Shown here: one piece after another, positions 1 to 58,700 of the stretch
Position numbering within the stretch: the first letter of the stretch is position 1
Layout of the letters: every line of letters begins with the position of its first letter
Assembly: GCF_009914755.1 (NCBI RefSeq)
Contig: NC_060946.1
Origin: the human T2T-CHM13v2.0 reference genome, Homo sapiens
Direction: 5' to 3' (one strand)
Length of the DNA: 64,000 bases
Position numbers and translations under genes: made by a program
The notes under the pieces: generated by a model
The model's database searches: none
What the model saw: only the letters and a program-made list of their open reading frames with translations
Told to the model about the DNA's origin: nothing

Positions 1-32
1 CGCCCTTTCCGCTGCTAGGCTGCGCCCGAGGC

Positions 33-66
33 TATTTAAACCCACCCTGGCTGGCCTGTACTCAGA
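33..66 (+). promoter_or_regulatory. Core Pol II promoter: TATA-like box plus initiator
   Basis: TATTTAAA at 33-40 and CTCAGA at 61-66 (fits the BBCA+1BW Inr). The first T lies 31 nt upstream of A64. Local context is CpG-containing. Confidence 0.55.
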
Positions 67-190
67 TCTTCGCGGAGCGGATCAGCGGCCGGAGCGTTTG
101 GCGGACTCTGCGTGGACTTGGAGCTCACAGTGTCTTGCGACTTGGAAGCGGATTCAGAGGACAGGACAGAACACGTGGGCAAGTGAATCT

Positions 191-327
191 CTGTCTGTCT
201 GTCTGTCTGTCTCATTGGTTGGTTGATTTCCATTTTCTTAAGGGGCACATACCTCACACCGCACACACACAAACACACACCGCACACACAAACACACACA
301 CACACACACACGCGCGCACACACACAC
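191..327. repeat. (CTGT)n and interrupted (CA)n microsatellites
   Basis: ctgtctgtctgt at 191-211; CA-rich run at ~256-327. Confidence 0.9.
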
Positions 328-388
328 TCCTTCCTTCTTCGAGTTAGAAAATTGGTACGGGCCCCTGGGAGCTGCAGGTTTCCTAATC

Positions 389-1201
389 ATGTCTGCACCT
401 AAGAACAGTAGGGTCTTGTCTGGCTCTTCTTATGAACGGTCCCCCAGCCCAGACTCCCCAAGGTCCATGCGAGCCTCACCCAGCTTCTTCCTCTCCCCTC
501 TCAGAATCTCTTGCTTAAGGGGAAGCTCCTCACCAGGGATCCGGAGCTACCATTCACCATCCCCTAGGGCTTCACCACACTCACCTCTGTCATCACCAGA
601 ATCCCACAAGCTCCCATTTCCCTGTCCTCACCGTGATGGGCAATCAATGAAGACATTGGGCTCTCCCGTGTCCTCCTCTGAGGATTCCTCAGAGTCCCCA
701 CGTTCATCAATAATATACCACATGCTCTTACTGCCATCACCCAGCAGCTCACCCCCAGCTCTCGGGGGGTCTCCTTTGTCTCCCAGCTACTCTCCAAACA
801 ACCCCAGATTTCAGCTGGAGTCAGCCCCCCACACCCAGGAATCACCTACAAACTCATGAGCCTCACGGTGCTCCACCCCTGTGTCTTTCATCTCTTCACC
901 CCCAGGCCTCAGGGACTCTCCTGTGGCTCCCAGTTACTCTCCAGCCATCCCCAGGTTCCTGTGGGAGTCAGCCCCATGCACCCAGGAGTCCCCCAGAGAC
1001 TCACAGGTCTCGGGAGAATATGAGTGGTCCCCCAGCCCTGACTCCTCAAGATTCATGCCTGCCTCACCCAGCTTCTCCCTCTCCCCTCCCAGAAACTCAG
1101 ACCCAAGGGGCAGCTCCTCACCAGAGATGTGGAAGTATTCTACATCACCACGCATGGCTTCACCACTCTCCTTACCATTAGAACACTCAGTAATCATATG
1201 A
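389..1201 (+). pseudogene. Interrupted SP-rich ORF with Pol II CTD-like heptads (one in-frame TGA at 857-859)
   Basis: ORFs 389-859 and 881-1201 share a frame. The ATG has A at -3. Translation gives heptads such as SPLSPSY, SPNNPRF, SPVAPSY, SPAIPRF. Confidence 0.45.
410..1180 (+). repeat. ACRO1-type 147-bp satellite (degenerate, ~5 units)
   Basis: ctcccag(c/t)tactctcca recurs at 780 and 927 (147 bp apart); ggtcccccagccc recurs at 438 and 1026 (588 = 4x147). The period matches the ACRO1 satellite of acrocentric arms. Confidence 0.8.
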
Positions 1202-1709
1202 ATTGTGCAGTTGTTGTTTTGCTTAACTCTTTTTGTTTGTTTATGCTTGGGGTTTTATTGTTGTTGTTTCACTTTTCTCCCATCTCTTCCTGACTTGGTC
1301 AAATCCAAAGGAATGTTCCAAATTATGGGGAGCAAGTCCTCTGAATTGGCTAAAACTCCTATGGCTGCAAAAAAACAAACAAATAAACAACAAAAAAAAG
1401 CATTCCAGTTAGCAGAAATTATTTTTTAAACCTTTTTTTTTACGTAACTGGTCTCATCTACATAAAAAGGTCATCCTTTTGCTAGCCAAGGCCAAACTGA
1501 AGGAGTAGTGGTGGTGACCCAATGTGAAGATTCTGCCCTGTTCACTACAGAAACCTGAGTTTGGTTCCTAAGTCTAGTTCTTTCTGTTTGATATTTGTGT
1601 TACTTTTAAAACGTCAGCAGTTTGTCCCAGCTATGATGTGGTAGTAAAAGATTCAAAAGGGGTTTCTTTACAGGTTCTATGATTAAAAGCTTAATTTAAA
1701 GCAAATTTC

Positions 1710-2806
1710 TTTTTTTTTAAATTATACTTTAAGTTCTGGGGTACATGTGCAGAACATGCAGGTTTGTTACATAGGTATACACATGCCATGGCGGCTTGCT
1801 GCATCCATCAACCCATGATCTACATTAGTTATTTCTCCTAATGCCATCCCTCTCCTAGCCCCCCACGCTGACAGGCCCTGGTGTGTGATGTTCCCCTTGC
1901 TGTGTCCATGTGTTCCCATTGTTCAACTCCAAGTTATGAGTGAGAACATGTGGTGTTTGGTTTTCTGTTCTTGTGTTAGTTTGCTGAGAATGATGCTTTC
2001 CAGCTTCATTCATGTCCCAGCGAAGGACGTGGATTCATCCTTTTTATGGCTACATAGTATTCCATGGTGTATATATGCCACATTTTCTTTATCCAGTCTA
2101 TCATTGGTGGGCATTTGGGTTGGTTCCAAGTCTTTGGTTTTGTGAAAAGTGCCGCCATAAACAGACAGGTGCATGTGTCTTTATATTAGAATGATTTATA
2201 ATTTTGGGGGTATTTACCCAGTAATGGGATTGCTGGGTCAAATGATATTTCTAGTTGTAGATCCTTGAGGAATTGTCACACTGTCTTCCACAATGGTTGA
2301 ACTAATTTATATTCCCACCAACTGTGTAAAAGCGTTCCTATTTCTCCACATCCTGTCCAGCATCTGTTGTTCCCTGATTTTTTAACGATAGCCATTCTAA
2401 GTGCTGTGAGATTGTATCTCATTGTGGTTTTGATTTCCATTTCTCTAATGACCAGTGATGATGTGCTTTGCTTCACATGTTCGTTGGCTGTATAAATGTC
2501 TTCTTTGGTAAGTGTCTGTTCATATCCTTTGTCCACTTTTTGATGGGGTTGTTTGTTTTTTTTTTTCTTGTAAGTTTGTTCTTTGTAGATTCTGCATATT
2601 AGCCCTTTGTCAGATGGATAGATTGCAACAATTTTCTCCCATTCTCTGGGTTGCCTGTTCACTCTGATAATAGTTTCTTTTGCACTGCAGATACTGTTTA
2701 GTTTAGTTAGATCCCATTTGTCAATTTTGGCTTTTGTTGCCATTGCTTTTTGTGTTCTGGTGATGAAGTCTCTGCCTATGGCTCTGTCCTGAATGGTATT
2801 GCCTAA
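1710..2806 (-). mobile_element. L1PA 3' portion (ORF2 C-terminus, 3'UTR, poly-A)
   Basis: Poly-T at ~1710 followed by the reverse-complement L1 3'UTR (attatactttaagttctggggtacatgtgcagaac). ORF 2276-2845 matches the ORF2p C-terminus ([14 protein letters not shown]...[16 protein letters not shown]). Confidence 0.95.
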
Positions 2807-2829
2807 CACAAGGACATTTATGTGCCTGA

Positions 2830-3330
2830 GTGCTATACCACCCACAGTAATTTATAGATTTATTGCTATCCTCATTAAGCTACCATTGACTTTCTTCATA
2901 GAATTAGAAAAACTACTTTAAATTTCATATGGAACCATAAAAGAGCCCACATAGCCAAGACAATCCTAAGCAAAAACAACAAAGCTAGAGGCATCACAGT
3001 ACCTGACTTCAAATTATTCTACAAGACTACAGTAACCAAAACAGCATGGGGCTGGTACCAAATCAGATCTATAGACCAATGGAACAGAACAGAGGCCTCA
3101 GAAATGACACCACACATCTAAAAGCATCTGATCTTTGACAAACCTGACAAAAACAAGCAATGGGTAAAGGATACCCTATTTAATAAATGATCTTGGGAAA
3201 ACTGGCTAGCCTTATGCAGAAAACTGAAACTGGGCCACACCCATACACCTTAAACAAAAATTAAGTAATATGGATGAAAGAGTTAAATGCAAGACCTAAA
3301 ACAATAAAAAATCTAGAAGAAACCTAGGCC
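2830..3330 (+). mobile_element. Inverted 5' segment of the same L1 (twin-priming inversion)
   Basis: Plus-strand ORF2 sequence ends at ctagaagaaacctagg, the L1 position where the minus-strand segment begins (taggcaataccattcagga). Confidence 0.85.
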
Positions 3331-3388
3331 AACAACCTCAGGGGAAATGTACCTGTAATGAAATGCATGGTACAAACACGCATTCCTT

Positions 3389-5292
3389 GCTTCCTTGAGT
3401 GGGTGACGTTGATGGCTAGTCCAATCACTCCAGCCACACCCTTGCAAACGTGGCTGGTTCCTTTTTGAGCCAGCTTGGCTTTGCCCGGCATGCACAAGTC
3501 AGTGCAACAACTGTGACACAAATGGAGCCATACAGAGAAAATGAGCAGCAGGCTCAGGAGCAGGGTGTGCGCTGCCTTGGGGGCTCCAGTCCATGCCTCA
3601 GGGCTCATATGACACTGCGGGCTTCTTGGGTGCAAAGAGGCAGACCACAGGCCATCTTCAGGAGGCCTTTATTTTGAAGTGCAGAAAGCAGCCAGGATTA
3701 CCACCCGTGGGACTCGGCCTTTTGTGACCCTGGCCTGACAGAGTTTGGCCCAAGGCAGGACAAGCTCACTCAGAGCAACGTGTCAGTACCTGGGGCCTGT
3801 GCATGCCAGTCAAGGCCAAGCTGGCTCAAAGAGCAACCAGCCACCTCTGCAAGGGTGTGCCTGGAGCAGGTGGACCAGCCACCAACCTCACCCACTGAAG
3901 GAAGCCAGGATGGCCAGGTTTCCACAGCCTGAGTGGCTGCCTCCTGATGGCTGATGGAGCAGAGGCCTGAGGAAAAGCAGGTGGCATGTTTAACTCTTTA
4001 ATCTATCTTAAGTTAATTTTTGTATAAAGCAGATGGCACCGGTCCATGCCTCGGGGTTCATATGGCACTGTGGGCCACAGAAGGCTGAGTCCCCTGGGTG
4101 GTAATCCTGCCTGCTTTCTGCACTTGAACATAAAGTCCTCCTCAAGATGGCCTGTGGTCTACTTCTCGGCCCCACCTTTAGGGTAGAAGAACTGATGTAC
4201 CACGTCTGACAGTGAGTGAGGTTGACGGCTGGTCCACCTGCTCCTGGCACACCTTGCAGAGGTGGCTGCTTGCTCTTTGAGCCAGCTTGGCCTTGCCTGG
4301 CATGCACAAGCCTCACTGCAACAAGTGTACAACAAATGGAGCCATAAAGAGGAAATGATCAGCAGGCTCAGGAATGGGGCGTGCACTGCCTCTGTGGCTC
4401 CAGTCCATGCCTCAGGGCTCGTATGGCACTGTAGGCTTCTTGGTCGCCAAGAGGCAGACCACAGACGGTCTTGAGGAGGACTTTATGTTCAAGTGCAGAA
4501 AGCAGCCAGGATTAGCACCCAGGGGACTCGGCCTTCTGTGGCCCTGGCCAGAGGTAGAATTTGGCCCAACACACTACAAGCTGACTTGGAACGGCATATA
4601 GGTAGCTGGGGCCTGTGCATGCCAGGCAAGGCCAAGCTGGATCAAAGAGCAAGCAGCCACCTCTGCAAGGGTGTGCCTGGAGCAGGTGGAGCAACCACCA
4701 ACCTCACCCACTCAAGGAAGCAGGGATGGCCAGATTCCTACAGCCTGAGGGGCTGCCTCCTGATGGCTGATGGAGCAGAGGCCTAAGGAAAAGCAGATAG
4801 CACTGTGGCCCTAACTGTAGGGTAGAAGAACTGATGTAACCCGACCGGCAGCAAGTCAGGTTGGTGGCTGGTCCACCAGCTCCAGGCACACCCTTGCAGA
4901 GGTGGCCGGTTGCTTTTTGAGCCAGCCTGGCCTTCCTCAGTATGCACTAGTCAGTGCAACAACTGTGACACAAATGGAGCCACACAGAGAAAATGAGCAG
5001 CAGGCTCAGGAGCAGCGTGTGCGCTGCCTTGGGGGCTCCAGTCCATGCCTCAGGGCTCATATGGCACTGCGGGCTTCTTGGTTGCAAAGAGGCAGACCAC
5101 AGGCCATCTTCAGTAGGTCTTTATGTTGCAGTGCAGAAAGCAGCCAGGATTACCACCCGTGGAACTCGGCCTTTTGTGACCCTGGCCTGACAGAATTTGG
5201 CCCAAGGCAGGACAAGTTCACTCAGAGCAACGTGTCTGTACCTGGGGCCTGTACATGCCAGGCAAGGCCAAGCTGGTTCAAAGAGCAACCAG
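3389..5292. repeat. Three tandem foldback units (A' - B - A), partly SNX18-derived
   Basis: A ~100-110-bp module alternates in orientation: minus at 3389-3498, 4211-4312, 4858-4950; plus at 3796-3905, 4610-4712, 5246-5292. The ~295-bp spacer B encodes KRQTTDGLEEDFMFKCRK, similar to the SNX18 PX-domain segment EKQATGRFEEDFISKRRK. Confidence 0.85.
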
Positions 5293-5296
5293 AGCA

Positions 5297-6071
5297 TCCA
5301 TTCTGGTGGATGAGCCAACCACATGGCCAGCTTCTGGGTGTGGGCACAGTGCCACATCTTCCATCACTTTCTGATATATCCCACCAGCACTGAAGAGACA
5401 GCCTGGAGAGAGTGCAAGAGGAAGGCTGAGAAGGATGAGATGGTGAGTGCTGGCTTCTTTCTGACCCTCAGCACACCCCCAGGTGGTGACCATCAACCTT
5501 TAGGGGTGGGAGAGCAAGATTGATGGCTTCAAATACTTCCCCAAGAAGATGGACACAGGCCACTCAGCTCAACCTCACAGCCAATGAGTTGACATGCAAG
5601 CAGATGACAGTGACAGGCTTTTAGAAAGAGCTTCAGAAGGCGGCCAGTTTTTCTTCGGCCTCAGCCAGGCCTTGGAACTTGACTAGGCCATCCACTTCAC
5701 CAGAGATGCCTTCAAGAACATCAGTGAGCTCCTTGCCAATCCGTCCAGGAAGGACCTGGACCCAGCCATGGACCTGTTAGTGCTGTCTCAGGGACACCAG
5801 ACCAACATCCTGGACATCATCCTCATATACAAGGAAGCTCTTACGACAGTCACGGAGAACAGGCAACATGTGGCAGAAGGGAAGACAGAGGTACAGAGGC
5901 TGATGGCATCATTATCACAGGAACAGGATTTCTTTGGCCACTTTGGCTGAAATTCACCACTTCTATCCAATCCACTCAAGCGAGAGACTTGAAATCACAG
6001 ATGGAACATTTCTTGCAACAAGAGATACTATTTTTTCAAAAAGTCACCTAAAATTTGATAGTGTTGAATGA
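5297..6071 (+). pseudogene. SNX18P: Processed SNX18 pseudogene (end of PX domain plus BAR domain), frameshifted
   Basis: Fragments [41 protein letters not shown] and MDLLVLSQGHQTNILDII..KEALT..RQHVAEGKTEVQ match the SNX18 C-terminal half. The sequence is contiguous across the parental QKG|ALTK exon junction and ends gatagtgtt (DSV). Confidence 0.9.
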
Positions 6072-6450
6072 CTAGCTATTCGAGTGTGGACTTTTTCCAG
6101 TGCACGGGTACTTTCTACAGCAGAATGATAACAGTATCAAAGGGCTGGTGCCAGCTATCGGTGGTAGTACAAGGATGACTTTGTGCTCAACTGAAACCCA
6201 GCTGAATATAGACTTGTGTAGGAAAGTGTTAATATGGTGATAGAATAGAAACAGTAGCAAATGAACTAAATCATACTATGAATGCCTACACTACCATTAT
6301 AACTTTTTGAAGAATGATAATACCACTTACTTTATTGCCTTTTGAAGTAGGAATATTTTAGTGGATATGCTATAGACCAGAAACCCTATAAAGAACCCCA
6401 AAGAAGCTGGCTGGATAAAGCCTGCTATGGATGTCTTTATACTCAAAGAC
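6072..6450 (+). other. Probable SNX18 3'UTR remnant of the pseudogene
   Basis: AT-rich non-TE sequence directly after the pseudo-stop; assigned by position only. Confidence 0.45.
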
Positions 6451-8849: not shown

Positions 8850-11800
8850 ACTCACATAGGATTCCAGAACACTGCTACAAGGCTCTGAGTGTTTGTCCCT
8901 CACGTAGGATTCCAGAACACTGCTGCCATTGTCTGAATGTTTGTCCCCCACATAGGATTCCAGAAGCCTGCTGCTGGGGTCTGAATGTTTGTCCCCCATC
9001 TAGGATTCCAGAACACTGCTGCGAGGGTCTGAATGTCTGTCCCTCACATATGATTCTAGAACATTGATGCTAGGGTCTGTATGTTTGCCCTTAACATATG
9101 ATTTCAAAACACTGCTCCTGGATTCTGAATGTTTGTCCTTCACATAGGAATACAGAACACTGCTGCTGGAGTCTGAATGGTTGTCACTCACATAGAATTC
9201 CAGAACACTGCTGTGAGGATCTGAATGTTTGACCCTCACATGGGATTCCAGAACACTGCTGCGAGTGTCTAAATGTCTGTCCCTCACACAGGATTCCCGA
9301 ACAATGTTACGAGGTTCTGAATGTTTGTCCCTAACATAGGATTCCAGAGCACTCCTGCTGTGCTCTGAATGCTTCTCCCTCACATAGGATTCCAGAACAC
9401 TGCTACGAGGGTCTGAATGCTTATCCCTCATATAGGATTCCAGAACACTTCTGCTGTGGTCTGAATGTTTGTTCCTCACATAGGATTCCAGAATACTCCT
9501 GCCGTGGTCTGAATGTTTGTCCCTCACATAGGATTCCAGAACATTCATGCTGGGGTCTCAATATTTCCCTTAACATAGGATTTCAGAACACTGCCCTTGG
9601 GGTCTGAATGTTTGTCGCTCACATAGGATTACAGAACACTGCTGCTGGAGTCTGAATGTTTGTCAGTCACATAGAATTCCAGAACACTGCTACAAGGGTG
9701 TGACTATTTCTCCCTCACCTAGTATTCCAGAACACTGTTGCAAGGGTCTGAATGTTGGTCTGCCATATAGGATTCCAGAACACTGATGCTGTGGTCTGAA
9801 TGTTTGTCCCTCACATAGAATTCCGGAACACTGCTACAAGGGTCTGAATGTTTGTCCTTCACATACCATTCCAGAACACTGCTGCCGTGGTCTGAATGTA
9901 TGTCCCTCACATAGGATTCCAGAACACTGCTACTAGGTTCTGAATGTTTTTCCCACACCTAGGATTCCAGAACACTTCTGCTGGTGTCTGAATGGTTGTT
10001 CCTCACATATGATTCCAGGACACTGCTATGAGAGTCTTAATGTTTGTCCTTCACGTAGGATTCTAGAACACTGCTCCCGTGGTCTGAATGTTTGTCCTTC
10101 ACATAGCATTCCAGAACACTGCTGCTGGGGTCTGAATGTCTGCCCCTCAAATCAGATTCCAGAGCACTGCTGCTGGGGTTTGAATGTCTTTCCCTCACAT
10201 AGAATTCCAGAACACGGCTGGGAGGGTCTGAATGTTTGTCCCTCACATGGGATACCAGAACACTGTTGCGAGGGTCTAAATGTCTCTCCCTCACATAAGA
10301 TTTCAGGACACTGCTACGAGGTTCTGAATGTTTGTCCCTCACATAGGATTCCAGAACACTGCCACGTGGGTCTGAATGTTTGCCCTCACATAGGATTCCA
10401 GAACACTACTGCTGGGGTCTGAATGTTTGACCCTCACATAGGATTCCAGAACACTCCTGCTGTGGTCTGAAAGTTTGTTCATCACATAGGACTCCAGAAC
10501 ACTCCTAAGAGGGTATGAATGTCCCTCACATAGTATTCCAGAACACTCCTTCTGTGGTCTGAATGTTTGTTCCTCACATAGGATTCGAGAACACTCCTGC
10601 TGTGGTCTGAATGTTTGTCCCTTACCTAGGATTCGAGAACATTCACGCTGGGATGTAAATGCTTGCCCTTAACATAGGATTTCAGAACACTGCTCCTGGG
10701 GTCTGAAAGTTTGTCCCTCACATAGGATTCCAGAACTCTCCTGCTGTGGTCTGAAAGTTTGTACCGCACATAGGATTCCAGAACACTGCTGCTGTGGTCG
10801 GAATGTTTTTCTGTCACATAGGATTCCAGAACACTGCGGCTGGGTTCTGAATGTTTGTCCCTCACATAGGATTTCAGAACGCTGCTACGAGGGTCTGATT
10901 GTTGGTCCCTCACATAGGATTCCTGAACACTGCTGCTGGGCTCTGAATGTTTGTCCCTCACATTGGATTGCAGAACACTACTGCTATGGTCTGAACGTTT
11001 GTCCGTCACATAGGATTCCAGAACGCTCCTGCTGTGGTCTGAATGTTTGTCTGTCACATAGGATTCCAGAACACTGCGGCTGGGCTCTGAATGTCCCTGA
11101 CATAGGATTCCAGAACATTGCTATGAGGGTCTGAATGGTTGTCTTTCACATAGCATTCCAGAACACTGCTACGAGGGTCTGAATGTTGGTCCCTCACACA
11201 GGATTCCAGAACCCTCCACCTGGGGTCTGAATGTTTGTCCCTCACAAAGGATTCCAGAACACTGCTATGAGGGTCTGAATATTTGTCCCTCACATAGGAT
11301 TCCAGAACACACCTGCTGTGGTCTGAATGGTTGTCCCTCACAAAGGATTCCAGAACACTCCTGCTGTGATCTGAATGGTTGTCCCTCACATAAGATTCCG
11401 GAACACTTCTGCTGTGGTACGAATGTTTGTGTCTCACGTAGGATTCCAGAACACTGCTACGAGGGTCTCAATGTTTGCCCCTCACGTAAGATTCCAGAAC
11501 ACTGCTGCTGGGGTCTGAATGCTTGTCCCTCACATACGATTACAGAACAGTGTTGCTGGGGTGTGAATGTTTGTCCCTCACAAAGGATTCCAGAACACTG
11601 CCATGAGGGTCTGAATATTTGTCCCTCACATAGGATTCCAGAACACTCCTGCTGTGGTCTGAATGGTTGTCCCTCACATAGGATTCCAGAACACTCCTGC
11701 TGTGGTCTGAATGGTTGTCCCTCACATAAGATTCCAGAACACTTCTGCTGTGGTACGAATGTTTGTGTCTCACGTAGGATTCCAGAACACTGCTACGAGG

Positions 11801-13130
11801 GTCTCAATGTTTGTCCCTCACATAAGATTCCAGAACACTGCTGCTGGGGTCTGAATGCTTGTCCCTCACATACGATTACAGAACACTGTTGCTGGGGAGT
11901 GAATGTTTGTCCCTCACATAGGATACCAGACCACTGCTGCTGAGGTCTCAATGTCTGTCCCTCAAAAAAGGATTCCAGAACACTGTTACTAGGGTCTGAA
12001 TTTTTGTTCCTCACTTAAGACTGCAGAACACTGCTTCGAGGGTCTAAATGTCTGTCCTTCACATAGGATTCCAGAACACTCCTTCTGGTGTCTGAATGTT
12101 TGTCCCTCACATAGGATTCCAGAGCACTCCTGCTGTGGTCTCAATGTTTGTTAATCACATAGGATTCCAGAACACTGCTACAAGGGTCTGAATGTTTGTC
12201 CCTCACATAGGATTCCAGAATACTCCTGCTATGGTCTTAATGCTTGTCCCTCACATAGGATTCCAGAACATTCATGTTGGGGTCTGAATGTTTGCCCTTA
12301 TCATAGGATTTCAGAACAGTGTTCCTGGGGTCTGAATATTTGTCCTTCATATAGGATTTAAGAACACTCCTGCTTTTGTCTGAAAGTTTGTCCCTCACAT
12401 AGGATTCCAGAACTCTCCTGCTGTGGTCTGAAAGTTTGTCATTCACATAGGATTCCAGAACACTGCTGCTGTGGTTTGAATATTTGTCCCTCACATAAGA
12501 TTCCAGAACACTGCTAGGAGGGTCTGAATGTTTGTCCCTCACATAGGATTCCTGAGCATTGTTGCCATGGTCTGAATTTTTGCCATTCACATAGGATTCC
12601 AGAACAGTGCTACGAGGGTCTGAATGTTTGTCCCTCACATAGGATTCCAGAACACTTCTGCTGGTATCTGAATGTTTGTACCTCACATAGGATTCCAGAA
12701 CACTGCTGCTGGGGTCTGAACGTCTGTTCCTCACATAGGATTCTAGAACACTGCTGTTGGGGTTTGAATGTCCCTCACATAGAATTCCAGAACACTGCTG
12801 CGAGTGTCTGAATGTTTGTCCTGCAGATGAGATTCTAGAACACTGCTGCGAGGGTCTAAATGTCTGTCCCTGACATAACATTCCAGCACACTGCTACGAG
12901 GTTTTGAAATGTTTGTCCCTCACATAGGATTACAGAGCACTCCTGCTGTGGTCTGAATGTTTGCCCCTCACATAGGATTCCAGAACATTCCTGCTGTGGT
13001 CTGATTGTTCCTCACATAGGATTCTGGAACACTCCAGCTGGCTTCTGAGTGTTTGTCCCTCACATAGGATTCCTGAAGACTGCTGCTGTCACTATAGTCG
13101 TTGCGAGTGTCTGAATGTTTGACCTTCACC
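8850..13130 (+). repeat. CER (D22Z3-type) 48-bp satellite, ~89 units
   Basis: Unit cctcacataggattccagaacactgctgctggggtctgaatgtttgtc, with gctgctggg and gctacgagg variants as in the 96-bp CER dimer consensus. Confidence 0.92.
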
Positions 13131-42425: not shown

Positions 42426-43305
42426 TGAGTGACATGCTAAACCGGAAACCCAAAACAATGGGGGTGACATGCTAAACCAGAAACCCAAAACAATGGGAGC
42501 GATGTACTAAAACTGGAACCCAAAACAATGGGAGTGATGTGCACTAAAACCAGAACCCAAAACAATGGGAGTGACGTGCTAAACCAGAAACCCAAAACAA
42601 TGGGAGTGACTTGCTAAAACTGGAACCCAAAACAATGGGAGTGACGTGCCAAAAGCGGAAACGAAAACAAGGGGAGTGATGTGCTTAAACCAGAACCCAA
42701 AACAATGGGAGTGACCTGCGAAACCAGAAACCCAAAACAATGGGAGTGACGTGCTAAACCAGAAACCCAAAACAATGAGAGTGATATACTAAAACTGGAA
42801 CCCAAAACAATGGGGGTGACGAACACTAAAATCAGAATCCAAAACAATGGGAGTGACTTGCTAAAACTGGAACCCAAAACAATGGGAGTGATGTGCTAAA
42901 ACCGGAAATGAAAACAATGGGAGTGATGTGCTAAAACCGGAACCCAAAACAATGGGAGTGACCTGCTAAACCAGAAACCCCAAACAATGGGAGCATCCTG
43001 CTAAACCAGAAACCGAAAACAATTGGAGTGATCTGCTAAACCAGAAACCCAAAACAATGGGAGTGACGTGCTAAAACTGGAACCCAAAACAATGGGAGTG
43101 ACGTGCTAAAACCGGAACCCAAAACAGTGGGAGTGACCTGCAAAACCAGAAACCCAAAACAATGGGAGTGACGTGCTAAAACCAGAAACCCAAAACAATG
43201 GGATCATCCTGCTAAACCAGAAACCCAAAACAATGGGAGTGACGTGCTAAAACCAGAACCCAAAACAATGGGATCATCCTGCTAAACCAGAAACCCAAAA
43301 CAGTG
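42426..43305 (+). repeat. 35-bp VNTR, ~25 copies, inside the ERV internal region
   Basis: Unit ctaaaacc(a/g)gaacccaaaacaatgggagtgacgtg. Confidence 0.95.
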
Positions 43306-43382
43306 GTAACTAAGAGTGATGCTAAGGCCCTACATTTTGGTCACACTCTCAACTAAGTGAGAACTTGACTGAAAAGGAGGAC

Positions 43383-52793: not shown

Positions 52794-55700
52794 GAATGGA
52801 ATGGAATGGAATGCAATGGAATCAACCGGAGTTGAATGGAATGGAACGGAATGGAATGGAATGGAATGAAATGGAATGGAAAGGAATGGAATCAAACTGA
52901 GTGGAATGTAATGGAATGGAATGGAAAGGCACGGAATGGAATGGAATGGAATGGAATGGAATGGAATGGAATGGAATGGAATCAACCCGAGTGGAATGGA
53001 ATGGAATGGAATGGAATGGAATGGAATGGACTGTAACGGCATGGAATGCAATGGAATGTAATGGAGTGGAAGGCATTAGAATCAACTGGAATGGAATGGA
53101 GTGGAATGGAATGGAATCAACGCCAGTGGAATGGAATGGAATGGAATGGATAATAATGGAATGGAATGGAATCAATCCGGGTGGAATGGAATGGAATGGA
53201 ATGCAATGGAATGGAATGGAATCAACTCGAGTGGAATGAAATGTAACGTAATGTAATGTAATGTAATGGAATGGAATGGAATAGAATGGAATCAAATTCG
53301 AGTGCAATATAATGGTATAGAATGGAATGGAATGGAATGGAATGGAATGGAATCAACTAGAGTGGAAACGAATGGAAAGGAATGGAATGGAATGGAATGG
53401 AATGGAATGGAATGGAACGGCATGGAATGGAATGGAATGGAGTGGAATCAACCATAGTGGAATGGAGTGCAATGGACTGTAACGGCATGGAATGGAATGG
53501 AATGGAGTGGAATAAACACGAGTGCAATGGAATGGAATGGACTGGAATGGAATGGAATGGAATGGACTGGAATGGAATGGAATGGAATCAACCCGAGTGC
53601 AATGGAATGGAATAGAATGGAATGAAATAAACACGAGTGGAAAGGAATGGAATGGAATGGAATGGAATGGAAGAGAATGGAATGGAATCAACTCGAGTGG
53701 AAAGGAATGGAATGGAAAGGAATGGAATGGAATGGAAAGGAATGGAATGCAATGGAATGCAATGTTAGGGAATGGAATCAACCCGAGTGGAATGGAATGG
53801 AATGGAATGGAATGGAATGCAATGGAATGGAATGGAATCAACTCGAGTGGAATGAAATGTAATGTAATGGAATGGAATGGAATGGAATCAATTCGATTGC
53901 AATGTAATGGTATAGAATGGAATGGAATGGAATGGAATCAACCAGAGTGGAATGGAATGGAATGGAATGGAATGGAATGGAATGGAATAGAATGGAATGG
54001 AATGGAAAAGAATGGAATGGAATGGAATGGAATGGAATAGAATGGAATGGAATGGAACGGAATGGAATGGAATGGAATGGAATGGAATGGAATGGAATGG
54101 AACGGAACGGCATGGAATGGAATGGAATGGAGTGGAATCAACACGAGTGGAATGGAGTGGAATGGACTGTAATGGCATGGAATGGAATGGAATGGAGTGG
54201 AATAAACAAAAGTGGAATTGAATGGAATGGAATGGACTGCAATAAACCAGAGTGCAATGGAATGGAATAGAATGGAATGGAATGGAATGGAATGAAATAA
54301 ACACTAGTGGAATGGAATGGAATGGAATGGAAGAGAATGGAATGGAATCAACTCGAGTGGAAAGGAATGCAATGGAAAGGAATGGAATGGAATGGAAAGG
54401 AATGGAATGAAATGGAATGCAGTGTTATGGAATGGAATCAACCCGAGCGGAATGGAATGGAATGGAATGGAATGGAATGGAATGGAATGCAATGGAATGG
54501 ACAGGAATGGAATGGAATGGAATTCAATGGAATGGAATGGACAGGAATGGAATGGAATGTAATGGAATGGAATGGAATGGAGTGGAATGGACTAGAATGG
54601 AATGGAATGGAATGAAATCAACCCGATTGGAATGGAATGGAATGCAATGGAATGGAATGGAATCAACTGGAAAGGAATCAAATGGAACGGAATGGAATAG
54701 AATGGAATGGATTGGAGTGGAATGGAATGGAATGGATTCAACCTGAGAGGAATGCAATGGAAAAAAATGGAATAAACACGAGTGGAATGGAATGGAATGG
54801 AATGGAATGGAATGGAATAGAATGTAGTCAATTCGAGTGCAATGTAATGGTATAGAATGGAATGGAATGGAATGGAATCAACCAGAGTGGAATGGAAAGG
54901 AAAGGAAAGGAATGGAATGGAATGGAATGGAACGGAATGGAATGGAATGGAATGGAATGGAATGGCATGGAATGGAAGGGAATGGAATGGAATGGAATGG
55001 CATGGAATGGAATGGAATGGAATGGAATGGAATGTAACGGCATGCAATGGAATGGAATGGAGTGGATTCAACCCGAGTGGAATGGAGTGCATTGGACTGT
55101 AACGGCATGGAATGGAATGGAATGGAGTGGAATAAACACGAGTGGAATGGAATGGAATGGAATGGACTGGAATCAACCCGAGTGCAAGGGAATGGAATAG
55201 AATGGAATGGAATGGAATGGAATGAAATAAACACGAGTGGAATGGAATGGAATGGAATGGAAAGGAATGGAAGAGAATGGAATGGAATCAACTCGAGTGG
55301 AAAGGAATGGAATGGAAAGGAATGGAATGGAATGGAAAGGAATGGAATGCAATGGAATGCAGTGTTATGGAATGGAATCAACCCGAGAGGAATGGAATGG
55401 AATGGAATGGAATGGAATGGAATGGAATGGACAGGAATGGAATGGAATGGAATGGAATGGAATGGAATGGAATGGAATGGAATAGAATGGAGTGGAATGG
55501 ACTAGAATGGAATGTAATGGAATGAAATCAACCCGATGGGAATGGAATGCAATGCAATGGAATGGAATGGAATCAACTGGAAAGGAATCAAATGGAACGG
55601 AATGGAATAGAATGGAATGGATTGGAATGGAATGGAATGGAATCAAACCTAGTAGAATGGAATGGAAAGAATGGAATGAACAGGAATGGAATGGAATCGA

Positions 55701-58700
55701 ATGGAATTTAATGGAATGGAATGGAATGGAATGGAATGGAATTTAATAGAATGGAATGGAATGGAATGGAATCAAACTGAGTGGAATGGAATGGAATGGA
55801 ATGCAATGGAATGTAATGGAGTGGAAGGCATTAGAATCAACTGGAATGGAATGGAGTGGAATGGAATGGAATCAACGCCAGTGGAAAGGAATGGAATGGA
55901 ATGGATAATAATGGAATGGAATGGAATCAATCCGAGTGGAATGGAAGGGAATGGAATGCAATGGAATGTAATGGAGTTGAAGGCATTTGAATCAACTGGA
56001 ATGGAATGGAATGGAATGGAATGGAATCAACCCCAGTGGAATGGATGGGATGGGAATGGATTATAATGGAATGGAATGGAATCAATCCGAGTGGAATGGA
56101 ATGGAATGGAATGGATTATATTTGAATGGAATGGAATCAATCCTTGTGGAATGGAGTGGAATGGAATGGAATAGAATGGAATGGAATTCAATGTAATGGA
56201 AACAAACCGAGTGGAATATAATGGAATGGAAAGGACTGGAATCTAATGGAATGTATTGGAATCAACCTGATTCCAATGCAACGGAATGGAATGGAATGGA
56301 ATGCAATGGAAGGGAATGGAATGGAATGGAAAGGAATCAACCCGAGTGCAGTGGAATGGAATGCAATGGAAATGAATGGAATAGAACGGAATGGAATGGA
56401 ATGGAATGGAATCAACCCGAGTGGAGTGGAATGGAATGCAATGGAAATGAATGGAATAGAATGGAATGGAATGGAAAGGAACGGAATGGAATGAACCCGA
56501 GTGGAATGGAATGGAATAGAATGGAATGGAAAGGCACGAAATGGAATGGAACGCAATGGAATGGAATGGAATGGAATGGAATGGAATGGAATCAACCCGA
56601 GTGGAATGGAATGGAATGGAATCAAACTGAGTGGAATGGAATGGAATGGAATGGAATGGAATGGAGTGGAAGGCATTAGAATCACCTGGAATGGAATGGA
56701 ATGGAATGGAATGGAATGGAATCAACCCGAGTGGAATGGAATGGAATGGAATGGAATCAAACTGAGTGGAAAGGAATGGAATGGAATGGAATGGAATGGA
56801 ATGGAATGGAATGGAATCAACCACAGTGGAATGGAATGGAACGGAATGGATTATAATAGAATGGAATGGAATCAATCCGGGTGGAATGGAATGGAATGGA
56901 ATGGAATGGAATGGAATGGAATCAACTCGAGTGGAATGAAATGTAACGTGATGGAATGGAATGGAATGGAATGGAATGGAATGGAATGGAATGGAATGGA
57001 ATACAATGGAATCAATTCGAGTGCCATGTAATGGTATAGAATGGAATGGAATGGAAAGGAATGAAATGGAATGGAATGGAATGGAATGGAATCATCCAGA
57101 GTGGAATGGAATGGAATGGAATGGAATGGAATGGAATGGAATGGAATGGAATGGAATATATTGGAATGGAATTCAACGGAATCAACTGGAATGGAATGGA
57201 ATGGAATGGAATGGATTATAATGGAATGGAATGGAATCAATCCGGGTGGAATGGAATGGAATGGAATGGAATGGAATGGAATTCAATGTAATGGAAACAA
57301 ACCGAGAGGAATGTAATGGAATGGAAAGGACTGGAATGTAATGGAATGGATTGGAATCAAACCGATTCCAATGCAACGGAATGGAATGGAATGGAATGGA
57401 AAAAAATCAACCCGAATGGAATGGATTGTAATAGAGTGGAATGGAATGGAATGGTATGGAATGCAATGAAATCAACTAGAATGGAATGGAATGGAATAGA
57501 ATGAACAGGAATGGAATGGAATGGAATGGAATGGAATGGAATGGAATGGAGTGGAGTGGAATGGAATGGAATGGAATGGAATGAAATCAACCCGATTGGA
57601 ATGGAATGGAATGAAATGGAATGGAATGGAATCAACTGGAAAGGAATCAAATGGAACGGAATGGAATGGAATGGAATGGAATGGAACGGATTGGAATCAA
57701 CCTCTGTGGAATGGAATGGAATGGAATGGATTATAATGGAATGGAATGGAATCAATCCGGGTGGAATGGAATGGAATGGAATGGAATGGAATGGAATGGA
57801 ATGCAATGGAATGGACAGGAATGGAATGGAATGGAATTCAATGGAATGGAATGGAAAGGAATGCAATGGAATGTAATGGAATGGAATGGAATGGAGTGGA
57901 ATGGACTAGAATGGAATGGAATGGAATGAAATCAACCCGATTGGAATGGAATGGAATGCAATGGAATGGAATGGAATCAACTGGAAAGGAATCAAATGGA
58001 ATGGAATGGAATAGAATGGAATGGATTGGAATGGAATGGAATGGATTCAACCCGAGTGGAATGGAATGGAATAGAACGGAATAAACACGAGTGGAATGGA
58101 ATGGAATGGAATGGAATGGAATCAACTCGAGTGGAATGAAATGTAATAAAATGGAATGGAATGGAATTGAATGGAATAAACACGAGTGGAATGGAATGGA
58201 ATGGAATGGAATGGAATAGAATGGAGTCAATTCAAGTGCAATGGAATGGTATACAATGGAATCGAATGGAATGGAATCAACCAGAGTGGAATGGAATGGA
58301 AAGGAAAGGAATGGAATGGAACGGAACGGAATGGAATGGAATGGAATGGAATGGAATGTAACGGAATGGAATGGAATGGAATGGAATGGAATGGAATGTA
58401 ACGTCATGCAATGGAATGGAATGGAGTTGATTCAACCCGAGTGGAATGGAGTGGATTGGACTGTAACGGCATGGAATGGAATGGAATGGATTGGAATAAA
58501 CACGAGTGGAATGGAATGGAATGGAATGGACTGGAATCAACCCGAGTGCAATGGAATGGAATAGAATGGAATGGAATGAAATAAACACGAGTGGAATGGA
58601 ATGGAATGGAATGGAAGAGAATGGAATGGAATCAACTCGAGTGGAAAGGAATGGAATGGAAAGGAATGGAATGGAATGGAAAGGAATGGAATGCAATGGA

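What the first reader, a model, noticed from the sequence alone, without database searches (positions are those of the whole stretch)
33..1387. The ACRO1 'satellite' sits in a complete gene-like cassette encoding an RNA Pol II CTD mimic
Seen: TATA at -31 from an Inr, a possible donor CAA|GTGAAT (182/183), a weak acceptor ctgcag|G (377/378), an ATG with A at -3 (389), a 270-codon frame with one stop, and AATAAA at 1382. The 147-bp period equals 7 heptads of 21 nt, and the frame reads SPLSPSY-SPNNPRF-QLESAPH-TQESPTN / SPVAPSY-SPAIPRF, a degenerate form of YSPTSPS. The single stop (TGA GCC TCA, 857) looks like a CpG-deaminated CGA (compare CGA GCC TCA at 470). Known: the POLR2A CTD is a YSPTSPS array. 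I recall that the ACRO1-CTD resemblance and Pol II-binding ACRO1 RNAs have been noted before, so verify this. Inference: ACRO units may be a tandemly amplified, unannotated gene family encoding a disordered CTD-like decoy or kinase substrate. This copy would be truncated to 156 aa.
Basis: partly seen in the sequence, partly recalled or inferred. Interest (0 to 1): 0.85.

Follow-up and report, generated by a model that had tools for sequence, protein, structure and literature searches.

The report
Truncated copy of ACRO repeat gene
This stretch is a broken front end of the 6.4-kb ACRO repeat unit of acrocentric chromosomes, whose intact copies carry a long, evolutionarily retained reading frame for a disordered protein resembling the tail of RNA polymerase II.

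Summary
The cassette, however, is not complete. Window 1-1170 is the 5' part of one ~6.4-kb ACRO composite unit ('ACRE'). It is cut at 1170/1171 and joined to an unrelated duplicated block, which supplies the stop at 1199 and the AATAAA at 1382.

Array copies on chr3, 15, 21 and 22 have the same TATA box, ATG-free leader and ATG. There the frame runs 993-1138 codons into a shared non-repeat tail, with ATTAAA 227 nt after the stop. The window's TGA is CGA in 38 of 41 sampled copies.

The CTD likeness exceeds composition: 23/49 identities against a shuffle maximum of 20, plus lag-7 periodicity. It was already published, together with the Pol II-binding ACRO1 RNA (Boots 2020).

The full gene anatomy was described in no paper my searches found. 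The frame is kept in a marmoset model and in more distant unnamed homologues, with a conserved CPSTCYCHTLASRR block. Against coding, variation among human copies looks neutral, and neither transcript structure nor protein could be tested here.

Verdict: a pseudogene-like fragment of a plausibly coding, DUX4-responsive macrosatellite gene. A CTD-decoy function is unproven.

The parts
1..32 (+). Last bases of the ACRE segment upstream of the promoter. The homology to array units runs from window -1764 to 29 (unit 4651-6444).
   Evidence: BLAST of the locus against one ACRE unit gave 95.8% over 1796 nt. The 400 bp before the TATA box have about 231 first-look candidates in the genome, close to the ACRE copy number and not the count of a high-copy transposon.
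33..40 (+). TATA-like box TATTTAAA.
   Evidence: Read. The 17-nt element around it is identical in 41 of 41 sampled copies. Promoter activity was not tested.
62..68 (+). Initiator-like TCAGATC with A at 64, 31 nt after the start of the TATA box.
   Evidence: Read. The match to the YYANWYY consensus relies on a recalled consensus. No transcript-start data were available.
1..200 (.). CpG-rich promoter and first-exon-like segment.
   Evidence: CpG observed/expected is 0.85 at GC 0.59, against 0.18 in 389-1170 and 0.12 in 1171-1720. This fits the published germline hypomethylation of ACRO1 (PMC5832720 passage).
64..388 (+). Putative 5' leader of 325 nt without any ATG. It contains (CTGT)n at 191-210 and (CA)n at 262-327.
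   Evidence: There are 0 ATG; shuffles give a mean of 4.35 and P(0) = 0.0095. (CA)n is and (CTGT)n. The array unit leader also has 0 ATG.
183..377 (+).
   Evidence: The dinucleotides are present in all 41 sampled copies. The donor lacks G at -1 and at +5, and the tract before the AG is only about half pyrimidine (read; the splice consensus is recalled). There is no splicing evidence. Because the leader has no ATG, ATG 389 is the first AUG whether or not splicing occurs.
389..1170 (+). ACRE-derived coding-like frame, codons 1 to about 260. It comprises a 14-codon N-terminus and five 147-bp units at 431-577, 578-724, 725-871, 872-1018 and 1019-1165.
   Evidence: It is 95-96% identical to array units over window 30-1170. 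The frame is shown and the internal repeats. There are no indels in the first 780 nt among 18 distinct copies.
857..859 (+). Premature TGA at codon 157, which is CGA in the paralogues.
   Evidence: The codon is CGA in 38 of 41 sampled copies and TGA only in the chr22 (window), chr14 and chr21 solo copies. The chr1 solo copy has CGA.
1170..1171 (.). Breakpoint where homology to ACRE ends.
   Evidence: Array copies match the query only to 1170. Window 30-1170 corresponds to unit 1-1148. Matches to the next block begin at its first base.
1171..1725 (.). Unrelated duplicated block. It supplies the stop at 1199-1201 and the AATAAA at 1382-1387. RefSeq places the terminal exon of the antisense lncRNA LOC124908441 at 1173-1364 (-).
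   Evidence: The own-genome search gave 44 matches; after the window itself, 21 are near-full-length at 87-99% (3 of them the sister solo copies on chr14, chr21 and chr1), and weaker ones of 68-71% lie elsewhere. Only 4 places, counting the window, adjoin an ACRE fragment. The lncRNA annotation comes from the hub table. CT at 1365-1366 is an AG acceptor on the minus strand.

Best explanation
Window 1-1170 is the 5' portion of one ACRO composite ('ACRE', ~6.4 kb) unit: promoter-like TATA box and initiator, a CpG-rich ATG-free leader, an ATG, and the first ~260 codons. It has been torn from its array and sits in a pericentromeric/acrocentric segmental duplication with four copies (chr22, chr14, chr21, chr1). 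It is non-functional as a gene. It lacks about three quarters of the frame and the conserved C-terminal tail. In three of the four copies it also carries a CGA-to-TGA nonsense change. Its apparent stop and poly(A) signal belong to the neighbouring, unrelated block.

The intact array units look like a real transcription unit. They share the same TATA box, leader and ATG. Their frame runs 993-1138 codons: a 14-residue N-terminus, about 19 repeats of 49 residues (each seven degenerate SP-heptads), and a ~150-residue basic Cys/His-rich tail. ATTAAA lies 227 nt after the stop.

Inferred, not shown: the unit is switched on by DUX4 at the 4-8-cell stage. Its mRNA is translated into an intrinsically disordered, heavily proline-directed-phosphorylatable protein. 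That protein's heptads could engage CTD kinases or CTD readers. The nascent RNA itself also binds Pol II, which was shown by others.
For: Fragment status:
- Array copies match only 1-1170 at 96%; four copies match 1-1400 at 98-100%.
- Window -1764..1170 corresponds to unit 4651-6444 plus 1-1148.
- The block from 1171 exists independently at many duplicated sites.
- Codon 157 is TGA in 3 of 41 copies and CGA in 38 of 41.

Gene-like unit:
- 20 of 26 array loci are open from the ATG for at least 760 codons, to the end of the locus.
- 5 of 6 complete units read 993, 1042, 1090, 1090 and 1138 codons to the same C-terminus.
- Frame 0 has 0 stops in all three segments, against 7/3/3 and 10/5/3 in the other sense frames. 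Shuffles give P(0) < 0.001, < 0.001 and 0.024.
- The leader has no ATG (P = 0.0095) and the promoter segment has CpG observed/expected 0.85.
- The TATA element is identical in 41 of 41 copies.
- ATTAAA lies 227 nt after the stop.

Retention of the frame:
- A marmoset protein P0002 (832 aa, named RPB1 by nr/UniRef) is collinear from the N-terminus to the tail.
- The unnamed P0109 (355 aa, from one 2371-nt contig) is collinear with P0007 at about 39% identity.
- The block CPSTCYCHTLASRR is more conserved than 4997 of 5000 column permutations.
- An old internal duplication (588 nt, 76% identical) has 0 gaps and dN/dS 0.59, against 1.39 and 0.92 in the control frames.
- Pooled old comparisons give pN/pS 0.75, p = 0.002, against 1.22 and 0.89 in the control frames.
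- The DNA alignment of 15 units has only 3-nt gaps.

CTD likeness:
- 23/49 identities, against a shuffle mean of 14.6 and maximum of 20; 0 of 1000 shuffles reach 23.
- BLASTP E = 5e-9.
- All 13 PDB sequences with E <= 10 are RPB1 CTDs.

Expression (passages from papers):
- A 4-cell peak (PMC6545021).
- DUX4 induction (PMC8990217; PMC11467316; preprint 10.64898/2025.12.22.696056).
- Germline hypomethylation (PMC5832720).
Against: Human copies vary as neutral DNA would:
- chr22p against chr3 and chr15p arrays shows 70-80 differences, spread 25:20:25 and 29:23:28 over codon positions. dN/dS is 0.84, against 0.80-1.01 in the control frames.
- Among 14 distinct array sequences (codons 1-406) there are 33 synonymous, 95 non-synonymous and 5 stop variants. 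The expectation is 36.2, 91.3 and 5.5.

Broken copies exist:
- 6 of 26 array loci and 1 of 6 full units carry stops.

Stop-poor composition:
- Canonical units are poor in stops in every sense frame (3 and 5 stops in 489 codons).
- Database ORFs read them in other frames (P0004, P0106).
- Even the POLR2A CTD exon has a 425-codon open alternative frame.
- Length alone is therefore weak evidence within the canonical array.

Other points:
- Unit pairs give only dN/dS 0.77, against 1.21 and 0.84 in the control frames.
- The marmoset model reads about 60 residues in the +1 frame.
- No Pfam family matches, including PF05001.
- Predicted structure is disordered: pLDDT 0.40 for P0002 and 50.8 for the tail.
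- Boots et al. found no stable ACRO1 transcript in HeLa and report that ACRO1 RNA blocks elongation in cis.
- No transcript start, strand, splice, ribosome or peptide data were available.
- Only one DUX4-type motif is present per unit.
Confidence: 0.7

Rival explanations
1. The window holds a complete, potentially active small gene (TATA box, initiator, one intron, ATG, ORF, AATAAA) that makes a 156-aa, or ancestrally 270-aa, CTD-like decoy.
For: All the listed signals are present at the stated positions. The leader lacks upstream ATGs and the promoter segment keeps its CpGs. The chr1 twin lacks the nonsense codon.
Against: Homology to the repeat unit stops at 1170, so the last 9 codons, the stop at 1199 and the AATAAA at 1382 come from an unrelated duplicated block. 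The conserved C-terminal tail and about 730-880 codons are missing. RefSeq annotates only an antisense lncRNA exon at 1173-1364 (hub table). The window ORF alone resembles the CTD only marginally: BLASTP E = 0.023, and its units score 14-21 of 49.
Confidence: 0.03
2. The ACRE frame is not translated. Its length is a by-product of C-rich, stop-poor heptad-like repeats kept uniform by concerted evolution. Whatever the unit does is done by RNA or chromatin: nascent ACRO1 RNA binding Pol II and damping its own transcription, or a structural role for acrocentric short arms and nucleoli.
For: Variation among human copies is neutral, including stop variants at the expected frequency. Canonical units are nearly stop-free in all three sense frames, and database ORFs are called in other frames. 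The marmoset model contains a frame-shifted stretch. Boots et al. showed Pol II binding and cis inhibition by ACRO1 RNA and detected no stable HeLa transcript. No fold or family was found.
Against: Frame 0 is also open through the non-canonical units and the tail, where the other frames have 7-10 and 3 stops. Collinear N-terminus, units and tail are kept in marmoset and in homologues down to about 39% identity. A short block is significantly more conserved than its surroundings. The old duplication has dN/dS 0.59 with 0 gaps. All unit indels are 3 nt. The leader is free of ATG.
Confidence: 0.3
3. ACRO1 descends from a copy of the POLR2A CTD-coding sequence, as Boots et al. speculate, so the likeness is homology and not convergence.
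For: The DNA-level local alignment score of the canonical array against the CTD exon is 73. With synonymous codons of the CTD permuted it is 42 +/- 9, with a maximum of 65 in 40 permutations. The best blastn hit is 70% over 92 nt, E = 1.6e-6. The array shows the same 3/4 sub-spacing within the heptad as the CTD.
Against: The N-terminus, units 1-2 and the tail have no counterpart in RPB1: PDB matches fall only within the CTD. The distant homologue P0109 has the same N-terminus, units and tail with only one clearly CTD-like unit. That fits an independent S/P-rich gene whose one repeat was later amplified. PF05001 does not score the frame. Codon usage for Ser and Pro differs. Periodic low-complexity DNA inflates alignment scores.
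Confidence: 0.1

Closest known systems
ACRO composite repeat, also called ACRE or ACRO_Comp (ACRO1 satellite plus L1PA10, MER21B and L1MB8 pieces). Sources: Boots 2020, PMC7714431; Hoyt preprint 10.1101/2021.07.12.451456; ape acrocentric preprint 10.64898/2025.12.22.696095.
   Same: The window piece is 95-96% identical to array units over unit 4651-6444 plus 1-1148. It has the 147-bp monomers. The unit is ~6.4 kb and forms arrays on chr13, 14, 15, 21, 22 and chr3. The 23/49 identity to the CTD is reproduced.
   Different: The window copy is a solo, truncated piece in inverted/direct arrangement with a second fragment. The passages I read in these papers do not describe the TATA box, the ATG-free leader, the ~1000-codon frame or the conserved tail.
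C-terminal domain (CTD) of the RNA polymerase II largest subunit (POLR2A/RPB1); Pfam PF05001.
   Same: Both have a heptad period with SP in register and a 3/4 sub-spacing. Natural stretches such as SPVCPSYSPTTPTF match two CTD heptads. BLASTP gives E = 5e-9 and PDB hits are exclusively RPB1. The ACRE frame has 108 S/T-P sites in 1042 residues.
   Different: The ACRE heptads are degenerate: lag-7 identity is 0.25 against 0.80 in the CTD. Tyr is 3% against 14%. There is no PF05001 match. The frame is not attached to a polymerase body, and it has its own N-terminus and a Cys/His/Arg-rich tail.
D4Z4 macrosatellite with the DUX4 ORF, and other tandem cleavage-stage gene arrays (recalled knowledge, not tested here).
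   Same: A kilobase-scale tandem unit in which each copy carries a promoter and an ORF. It is primate-restricted, silenced in somatic cells and expressed at the cleavage stage. Most copies are individually dispensable, so variation between copies looks neutral.
   Different: Here the ORF is itself built from a 147-bp satellite. The product has no DNA-binding or other recognisable domain. The unit appears to be a target of DUX4, not its source.
Gene fragments carried in pericentromeric or acrocentric segmental duplications.
   Same: Four near-identical copies on chr22, 14, 21 and 1. The piece is juxtaposed to unrelated duplicated blocks. It carries a nonsense change at a CpG.
   Different: The parent is a multi-copy repeat unit and not a single-copy gene.

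Membership tests
ACRO composite / ACRE unit | 147-bp ACRO1 monomers in tandem | tested here: met
   Self-matches at offsets 147 and 588 in the window. Tandem Repeats Finder reports period 147 with 11.6 copies in an array unit. No Repbase or Dfam ACRO1 consensus was available. The name rests on agreement with the published descriptions and on the reproduced 23/49 figure.
ACRO composite / ACRE unit | High identity to the ~6-kb composite beyond the satellite part | tested here: met
   95.8% over 1796 nt upstream and 95.4% over 1150 nt.
ACRO composite / ACRE unit | Complete unit within a head-to-tail array | tested here: not met
   The piece is truncated at 1170. It is preceded by an inverted partial unit, and no further ACRE sequence lies downstream within window 1-6000.
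RNA Pol II CTD (Pfam PF05001 RNA_pol_Rpb1_R) | Match to the family profile above its cut-off | tested here: not met
   There are 0 Pfam families at E <= 10 for the window ORF halves. There is no PF05001 match for the 1042-aa frame, P0002, P0007 or P0109. The own-genome PF05001 search hit POLR2A but no ACRO place among 150 scored candidates of 629.
RNA Pol II CTD (Pfam PF05001 RNA_pol_Rpb1_R) | Tandem heptads of the YSPTSPS type | tested here: inconclusive
   A lag-7 period is present but degenerate: 0.25 against 0.80 in the CTD. Identity is 23/49 against a shuffle maximum of 20.
RNA Pol II CTD (Pfam PF05001 RNA_pol_Rpb1_R) | C-terminal extension of the RPB1 catalytic subunit | tested here: not met
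   The frame stands alone with its own ATG and tail. PDB matches fall only within CTD residues.
Protein-coding gene | Reading frame retained across species | tested here: met
   Marmoset P0002 and the unnamed P0007, P0109 and P0104 are collinear with the human frame. Caveats: these are protein models only, no DNA was available, and P0002 has one +1-frame stretch.
Protein-coding gene | Fewer amino-acid-changing than silent changes (dN/dS < 1 relative to control frames) | tested here: inconclusive
   Old internal duplicates give 0.59 and 0.77 against control frames of 0.84-1.39. The pooled test gives p = 0.002, but the pairs share sequences. Recent human copies give 0.84, the same as the control frames, with neutral variant classes.
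Protein-coding gene | Capped, polyadenylated sense transcript, ribosome occupancy and peptides | not testable with these tools
   Only repeat-level expression statements from papers were available. Strand and transcript start are unknown.
DUX4-responsive cleavage-stage unit | DUX4 binding site near the promoter | tested here: inconclusive
   One TAATCCAATCA per unit lies about 495 bp before the TATA box, at roughly window -475 to -465. The expectation is 0.06 per 10 kb. The motif TAAYBBAATCA is recalled. No ChIP data were available.
DUX4-responsive cleavage-stage unit | Induction by DUX4 and a 4-8-cell expression peak | not testable with these tools
   This is stated for ACRO1 repeats in passages of PMC8990217, PMC11467316, 10.64898/2025.12.22.696056 and PMC6545021.

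The most novel reading that the evidence does not exclude
The roughly 230 ACRO composite units next to the nucleolar organisers are copies of a real, old gene. DUX4 turns them on together at genome activation. They then produce a ~1000-residue disordered protein of CTD-like heptads with a conserved Cys/His tail. That protein acts as a bulk substrate, sink or co-condensing partner for CTD kinases, phosphatases and CTD readers, thereby tuning Pol II activity during the first embryonic transcription wave. The 147-bp 'satellite' is the amplified coding repeat of that gene.
Probability: 0.15. Interest if true: 0.85.

Novelty: new member of a known kind. Interest (0 to 1): 0.55.

Why it matters
ACRO arrays are among the most acrocentric-specific sequences in apes, according to a passage of preprint 10.64898/2025.12.22.696095. 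They are transcribed at the 4-cell stage, and their role is unknown.

This analysis gives an explicit, testable gene model:
- a transcription start about 31 nt after a fixed TATA box;
- an ATG-free leader;
- a 993-1138-codon frame;
- a conserved tail motif;
- ATTAAA 227 nt after the stop.

That turns 'satellite expression' into ordinary questions about transcript structure, translation and protein partners. It also affects annotation. Solo fragments like this window's should be treated as pseudogene pieces. Automated 'RPB1-like' names in primate annotations, and in contaminated non-primate assemblies, refer to this frame and not to a polymerase.

If the frame is not translated, the finding still explains why the satellite resembles the CTD and why ORF callers keep predicting proteins from it.

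Tried and rejected
- Pfam scans of the window ORF halves, the 1042-aa frame, P0002, P0007 and P0109 gave nothing except a meaningless Adeno_shaft hit at E = 9.9.
- An Rfam scan of window 1-2000 at E <= 1 gave two matches far below their gathering scores.
- The PF05001 search of the whole genome found POLR2A and two other places but no ACRO place among the 150 scored candidates.
- Structure: the tail with an 8-sequence alignment gave mean pLDDT 50.8, pTM 0.11 and no secondary structure, so no fold search was run. The Atlas model of P0002 has pLDDT 0.40 and its structural neighbours all have TM < 0.4.
- I tried to decide whether the promoter is the MER21B LTR named in the ape preprint. No transposon library was available. 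Sub-queries return only ACRE copies, with about 230 candidates each. The question is unresolved.
- I looked for DNA of distant homologues for a true dN/dS. The search for related loci with P0109 in genome contigs found no relative. The species of P0007, P0109, P0104 and P0111 are unknown and were not pursued.
- The first frame-blind unit segmentation failed at the non-canonical units and was replaced by anchor-based units.
- My first CTD extraction picked an alternative open frame and was corrected.
Hoyt et al. under the PMC id I guessed is not held; the preprint was read instead.
- Literature searches. 'ACRO1' found 59 papers, 25 listed. 'ACRO1' + 'open reading frame' found 10, 8 listed, and none of the five I opened or word-searched describes the frame. 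'RPB1-like' + 'acrocentric' found 0. The main text of Boots et al. uses 'ORF' only for L1, and the supplement text uses 'promoter' only for T7. One 2025 preprint (PMC12746033) calls it 'a putative protein coding gene' in passing; its supplementary figure could not be seen.
Full report
**1. The observation**

- TATTTAAA is at 33-40. An initiator-like TCAGATC has its A at 64.
- CAA|GTGAAT is at 182/183 and CTGCAG|G at 377/378.
- ATG is at 389 with A at -3. AATAAA is at 1382.
- The frame 389-1198 is 270 codons, with one TGA at 857 and a terminal TGA at 1199.
- Over the same span the other sense frames hold 5 and 8 stops and the antisense frames hold 31, 6 and 9.

Tandem Repeats Finder does not report a 147-bp array in the window. 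Self-BLAST does show it: 749-856 matches 896-1003 (offset 147, 78%) and 431-582 matches 1019-1170 (offset 588 = 4x147, 78%).

The translated frame has a seven-residue period. Lags 7 and 14 give z = 2.5 and 2.8 in the window.

**2. What the stretch is**

A search of the window's own assembly with window 1-1400 gave 434 matches; 40 of 1043 first-look candidates were scored.
- Four places match 1-1400 at 98-100%: the window itself, chr14:5.83 Mb, chr21:7.63 Mb and chr1:127.77 Mb.
- Thirty-six further scored places lie in head-to-tail arrays spaced about 6.3-6.6 kb apart. They are on chr3 (95.75-95.85 Mb), chr22p, chr14p and chr15p, and they match only 1-1170, at 95-96%.
- Later searches added arrays on chr13, chr21 and elsewhere on chr15 and chr22.

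This is the ACRO composite ('ACRE' or ACRO_Comp) of the literature. It is described as a ~6-kb unit holding ACRO1 plus L1 and LTR pieces, arrayed on the acrocentric short arms. My sources are passages in PMC7714431, 10.1101/2021.07.12.451456 and 10.64898/2025.12.22.696095.

I aligned the locus to one 6444-bp unit.
- Window -1764..1170 corresponds to unit 4651-6444 followed by 1-1148.
- It is preceded, at -4881..-1769, by an inverted partial unit (3871 back to 612).
- That inverted piece carries a 911-codon open stretch, from about codon 83 to the normal C-terminus.
- Neither piece is complete.

From window 1171 onward the DNA is a different block. It occurs on its own at many pericentromeric duplications: 44 matches, of which, apart from the window itself, 21 are near-full-length at 87-99% (3 of these are the sister solo copies). 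The matches begin at its first base.

The stop at 1199 and the AATAAA at 1382 lie in that block. RefSeq places the terminal exon of an antisense lncRNA there, at 1173-1364. So the 'complete cassette' is a 5' fragment with a fortuitous 3' end.

**3. The intact unit**

In array copies the same ATG opens a much longer frame.
- Of 26 array loci, each holding 760 codons after the ATG, 20 are open to the end of the locus. The other 6 have one or two stops.
- Of 6 complete units examined, 5 read through to one shared C-terminus. These are 993 codons (chr3), 1042 (chr22p), 1090 (chr15p), 1090 (chr22:4.06 Mb) and 1138 (chr21). One unit, on chr13, is broken at codon 379.
- Three of these units overlap loci already counted among the 26.

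The frame is built as follows:
- a 14-residue N-terminus;
- a four-unit block (4 x 49 residues) present twice;
- about eleven canonical 49- or 48-residue units;
- a ~150-residue non-repeat tail, basic (pI 9.8) and rich in Pro, Arg, His and Cys.

Frame 0 has no stop in any of the three parts. The other sense frames have 7/3/3 and 10/5/3 stops. Base shuffles give P(0) < 0.001, < 0.001 and 0.024.

Other gene-like features:
- ATTAAA lies 227 nt after the stop.
- The leader from the initiator to the ATG has no ATG, in the window and in the array unit alike (P = 0.0095).
- The first 200 bp keep their CpGs: observed/expected 0.85, against 0.18 in the frame.
- The TATA element is identical in 41 of 41 sampled copies.
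Both sites are weak by the recalled consensus and nothing shows they are used. Because the leader has no ATG, ATG 389 is the first AUG either way.

The window's TGA is CGA in 38 of 41 sampled copies, including the chr1 twin.

**4. Is the frame a gene?**

*Evidence for.*

A word-indexed protein search found a marmoset entry, P0002 (832 aa). nr/UniRef names it 'DNA-directed RNA polymerase II subunit RPB1'. It is collinear with the human frame from the N-terminus through both four-unit blocks to the tail, at 67% identity. The search also found shorter 'RPB1-like' models from Piliocolobus and Papio.

An exhaustive search with the tail alone found 14 proteins. Several are much more distant. P0109 (355 aa, encoded on one 2371-nt contig, unnamed) aligns with the short form P0007 at about 39% identity. 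The alignment runs through the N-terminus, units 1-3 and the tail, with only small gaps and a one-unit length difference.

Conservation is uneven. Some 20-column windows share 4 identities and others share 15. Across eight sequences the block CPSTCYCHTLASRR is matched by only 3 of 5000 column permutations.

Within the human frame, the two four-unit blocks (588 nt, 76% identical) align without a single gap.
- Their 142 differences fall 37:46:59 over codon positions.
- dN/dS is 0.59, against 1.39 and 0.92 in the two shifted frames.
- Six pairs of canonical units give 0.77, against 1.21 and 0.84.
- Pooled, pN/pS is 0.75 (p = 0.002), against 1.22 and 0.89. The pairs share sequences, so this p is approximate.
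- A frame-blind DNA alignment of 15 units contains only 3-nt gaps.

*Evidence against.*

Differences among human copies are what neutral DNA would give.
- chr22p against chr3 or chr15p shows 70-80 differences, spread 25:20:25 and 29:23:28 over codon positions. dN/dS is 0.84, the same as the shifted frames at 0.80-1.01.
- Among 14 distinct array sequences, 133 variants split into 33 synonymous, 95 non-synonymous and 5 stop. A spectrum-matched expectation is 36.2, 91.3 and 5.5. The broken chr13 copy may add misaligned singletons to this count.
- With about 3 stop-creating changes expected among 70-80 differences, finding none in the three compared frames has P of about 0.04-0.06.

Canonical units are stop-poor in every sense frame.
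- ORF callers have produced proteins from other frames (P0004, P0106).
- The marmoset model reads about 60 residues in the +1 frame before returning to frame 0.
- Even the POLR2A CTD exon has a 425-codon open alternative frame.

Identity to the monkey models (79-83%) and to marmoset (67%) is no higher than I would expect for unconstrained codons. That judgement uses recalled neutral divergences.

No Pfam family matches. The predictions are disordered.

*Reading.* The frame and a few short motifs have been kept over long times, while most residues are free to change and individual copies are dispensable. That is the usual picture for a multi-copy, disordered, fast-evolving protein. It stops short of proof.

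**5. The CTD likeness**

I took the POLR2A CTD from the same genome, found with PF05001 at chr17:7.417 Mb.
- A majority unit built from 11 canonical units shares 23 of 49 residues with seven consecutive CTD heptads without gaps. This reproduces the figure in Boots et al.
- 1000 residue shuffles average 14.6 and never exceed 20.
- The window's own units score 21, 19, 18 and 14.
- BLASTP with composition adjustment gives E = 5e-9 for the 1042-aa frame and 0.023 for the window's 156 aa.
- All 13 PDB sequences with E <= 10 are RPB1 CTDs, the best at 2.8e-8.
- The lag profile copies the CTD's pattern: peaks at 7, 14, 21 and 28, minor peaks at 3-4, troughs at 1-2 and 5-6. Lag-7 identity is 0.25, against 0.80 in the CTD.
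- The family profile PF05001 does not score the frame.

So the frame works like a degenerate heptad array, with 108 S/T-P sites in 1042 residues. It is not a member of the CTD family.

DNA-level similarity to the CTD exon is somewhat above a synonymous-permutation null: 73 against 42 +/- 9, with a maximum of 65 in 40 permutations. This is a weak lead towards common descent. The N-terminus, units 1-2 and the tail have no polymerase counterpart.

**6. Expression and mechanism**

These statements come from passages of papers, not from data I could analyse.
- ACRO1 RNA peaks at the 4-cell stage (PMC6545021) and rises after cleavage (PMC12287470).
- DUX4 expression raises ACRO1 and HSATII transcripts (PMC8990217; PMC11467316, citing Hendrickson 2017; 10.64898/2025.12.22.696056).
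- ACRO1 is hypomethylated in spermatogonial stem cells and sperm (PMC5832720).
- Boots et al. found Pol II-binding aptamers in ACRO1 RNA that inhibit elongation in cis, and detected no stable transcript in HeLa.

One match to the recalled DUX4 motif lies about 495 bp before the TATA box in each unit, and before the window copy. The expectation is 0.06 per 10 kb.

The most likely working model has three steps.
- DUX4 opens the hypomethylated promoters at genome activation. This step is inferred.
- Sense transcripts start after the TATA box and end after the ATTAAA. This step is inferred.
- Those transcripts are translated into a disordered heptad protein. I put this at about 0.6. Whether that protein competes for CTD kinases or readers is open; I put it at about 0.15.

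The window copy takes no part as a gene.

**7. Novelty**

Already in print:
- the composite repeat;
- its CTD-like translation;
- its Pol II-binding RNA;
- its 4-cell and DUX4 expression.

A 2025 preprint calls it 'a putative protein coding gene' in one sentence (PMC12746033). Its supplementary figure was not visible to me. Annotation pipelines have emitted 'RPB1-like' models.

In the text I could search I did not find any of the following:
- the promoter, leader, ATG, ~1000-codon frame, tail and poly(A) anatomy;
- the retention of the frame in distant homologues;
- the conserved tail motif.

I class the finding as a new member of a known kind, namely macrosatellite-embedded cleavage-stage ORFs. 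The window's own feature is an ordinary truncated copy.

Noticed in passing
window 8851-13088: A 48-bp satellite with 88.6 copies at 79% matches. It fits the 48-bp CER satellite described for chr22 and the acrocentric arms in PMC3847771 (passage).
   Followed up: no
window 52794-63993: A long (GAATG)n pentamer array of about 2240 copies that runs to the window's end.
   Followed up: no
window 42427-43306: A 35-bp tandem repeat of 25 copies. It lies between annotated lncRNA exons (hub table).
   Followed up: no
L040, window -4881..-1769 (minus strand): An inverted partial ACRO unit just before the window. Its frame is open for 911 codons, from about codon 83 to the normal C-terminus. The locus thus holds two complementary, oppositely oriented fragments of the unit.
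   Followed up: partly
window 1171-1725: A block that also exists without ACRO sequence at many pericentromeric duplications (apart from the window itself, 21 near-full-length copies at 87-99%, 3 of them the ACRE-adjoining sister solo copies on chr14, chr21 and chr1) and at 68-71% on chrX, 6, 12, 3 and 7. The matches begin at its first base, as at the end of an old mobile element or retrocopy. Its identity was not determined. By eye, from about 1726 onward the sequence looks like antisense L1 (recalled, not tested).
   Followed up: partly
window 1173-1364 (minus strand): The terminal exon of RefSeq lncRNA LOC124908441 begins two bases after the ACRO/flank junction and has an AG acceptor (CT on the + strand at 1365-1366) (hub table).
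   Followed up: partly
L034:584-1858: The POLR2A CTD exon region has a 425-codon open stretch in an alternative frame. C-rich heptad-coding DNA is poor in stops in more than one frame.
   Followed up: no
P0002 residues ~609-668: The marmoset model reads the +1 frame of human codons ~806-866 and then returns to frame 0 before the conserved tail. This is either a compensated pair of frameshifts or an artefact of the gene model.
   Followed up: partly
P0009, P0015: Proteins 86-96% identical to the human frame are deposited under Plasmodium ovale wallikeri names. One is called 'RPB1, partial'. They look like host-DNA contamination, as described in general for ACRO1 in PMC6581058.
   Followed up: no
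L041 (chr13:5335001-5345000): In one array unit the frame leaves the repeat at codon 379 and enters unrelated residues. This could be an array edge or an insertion.
   Followed up: no
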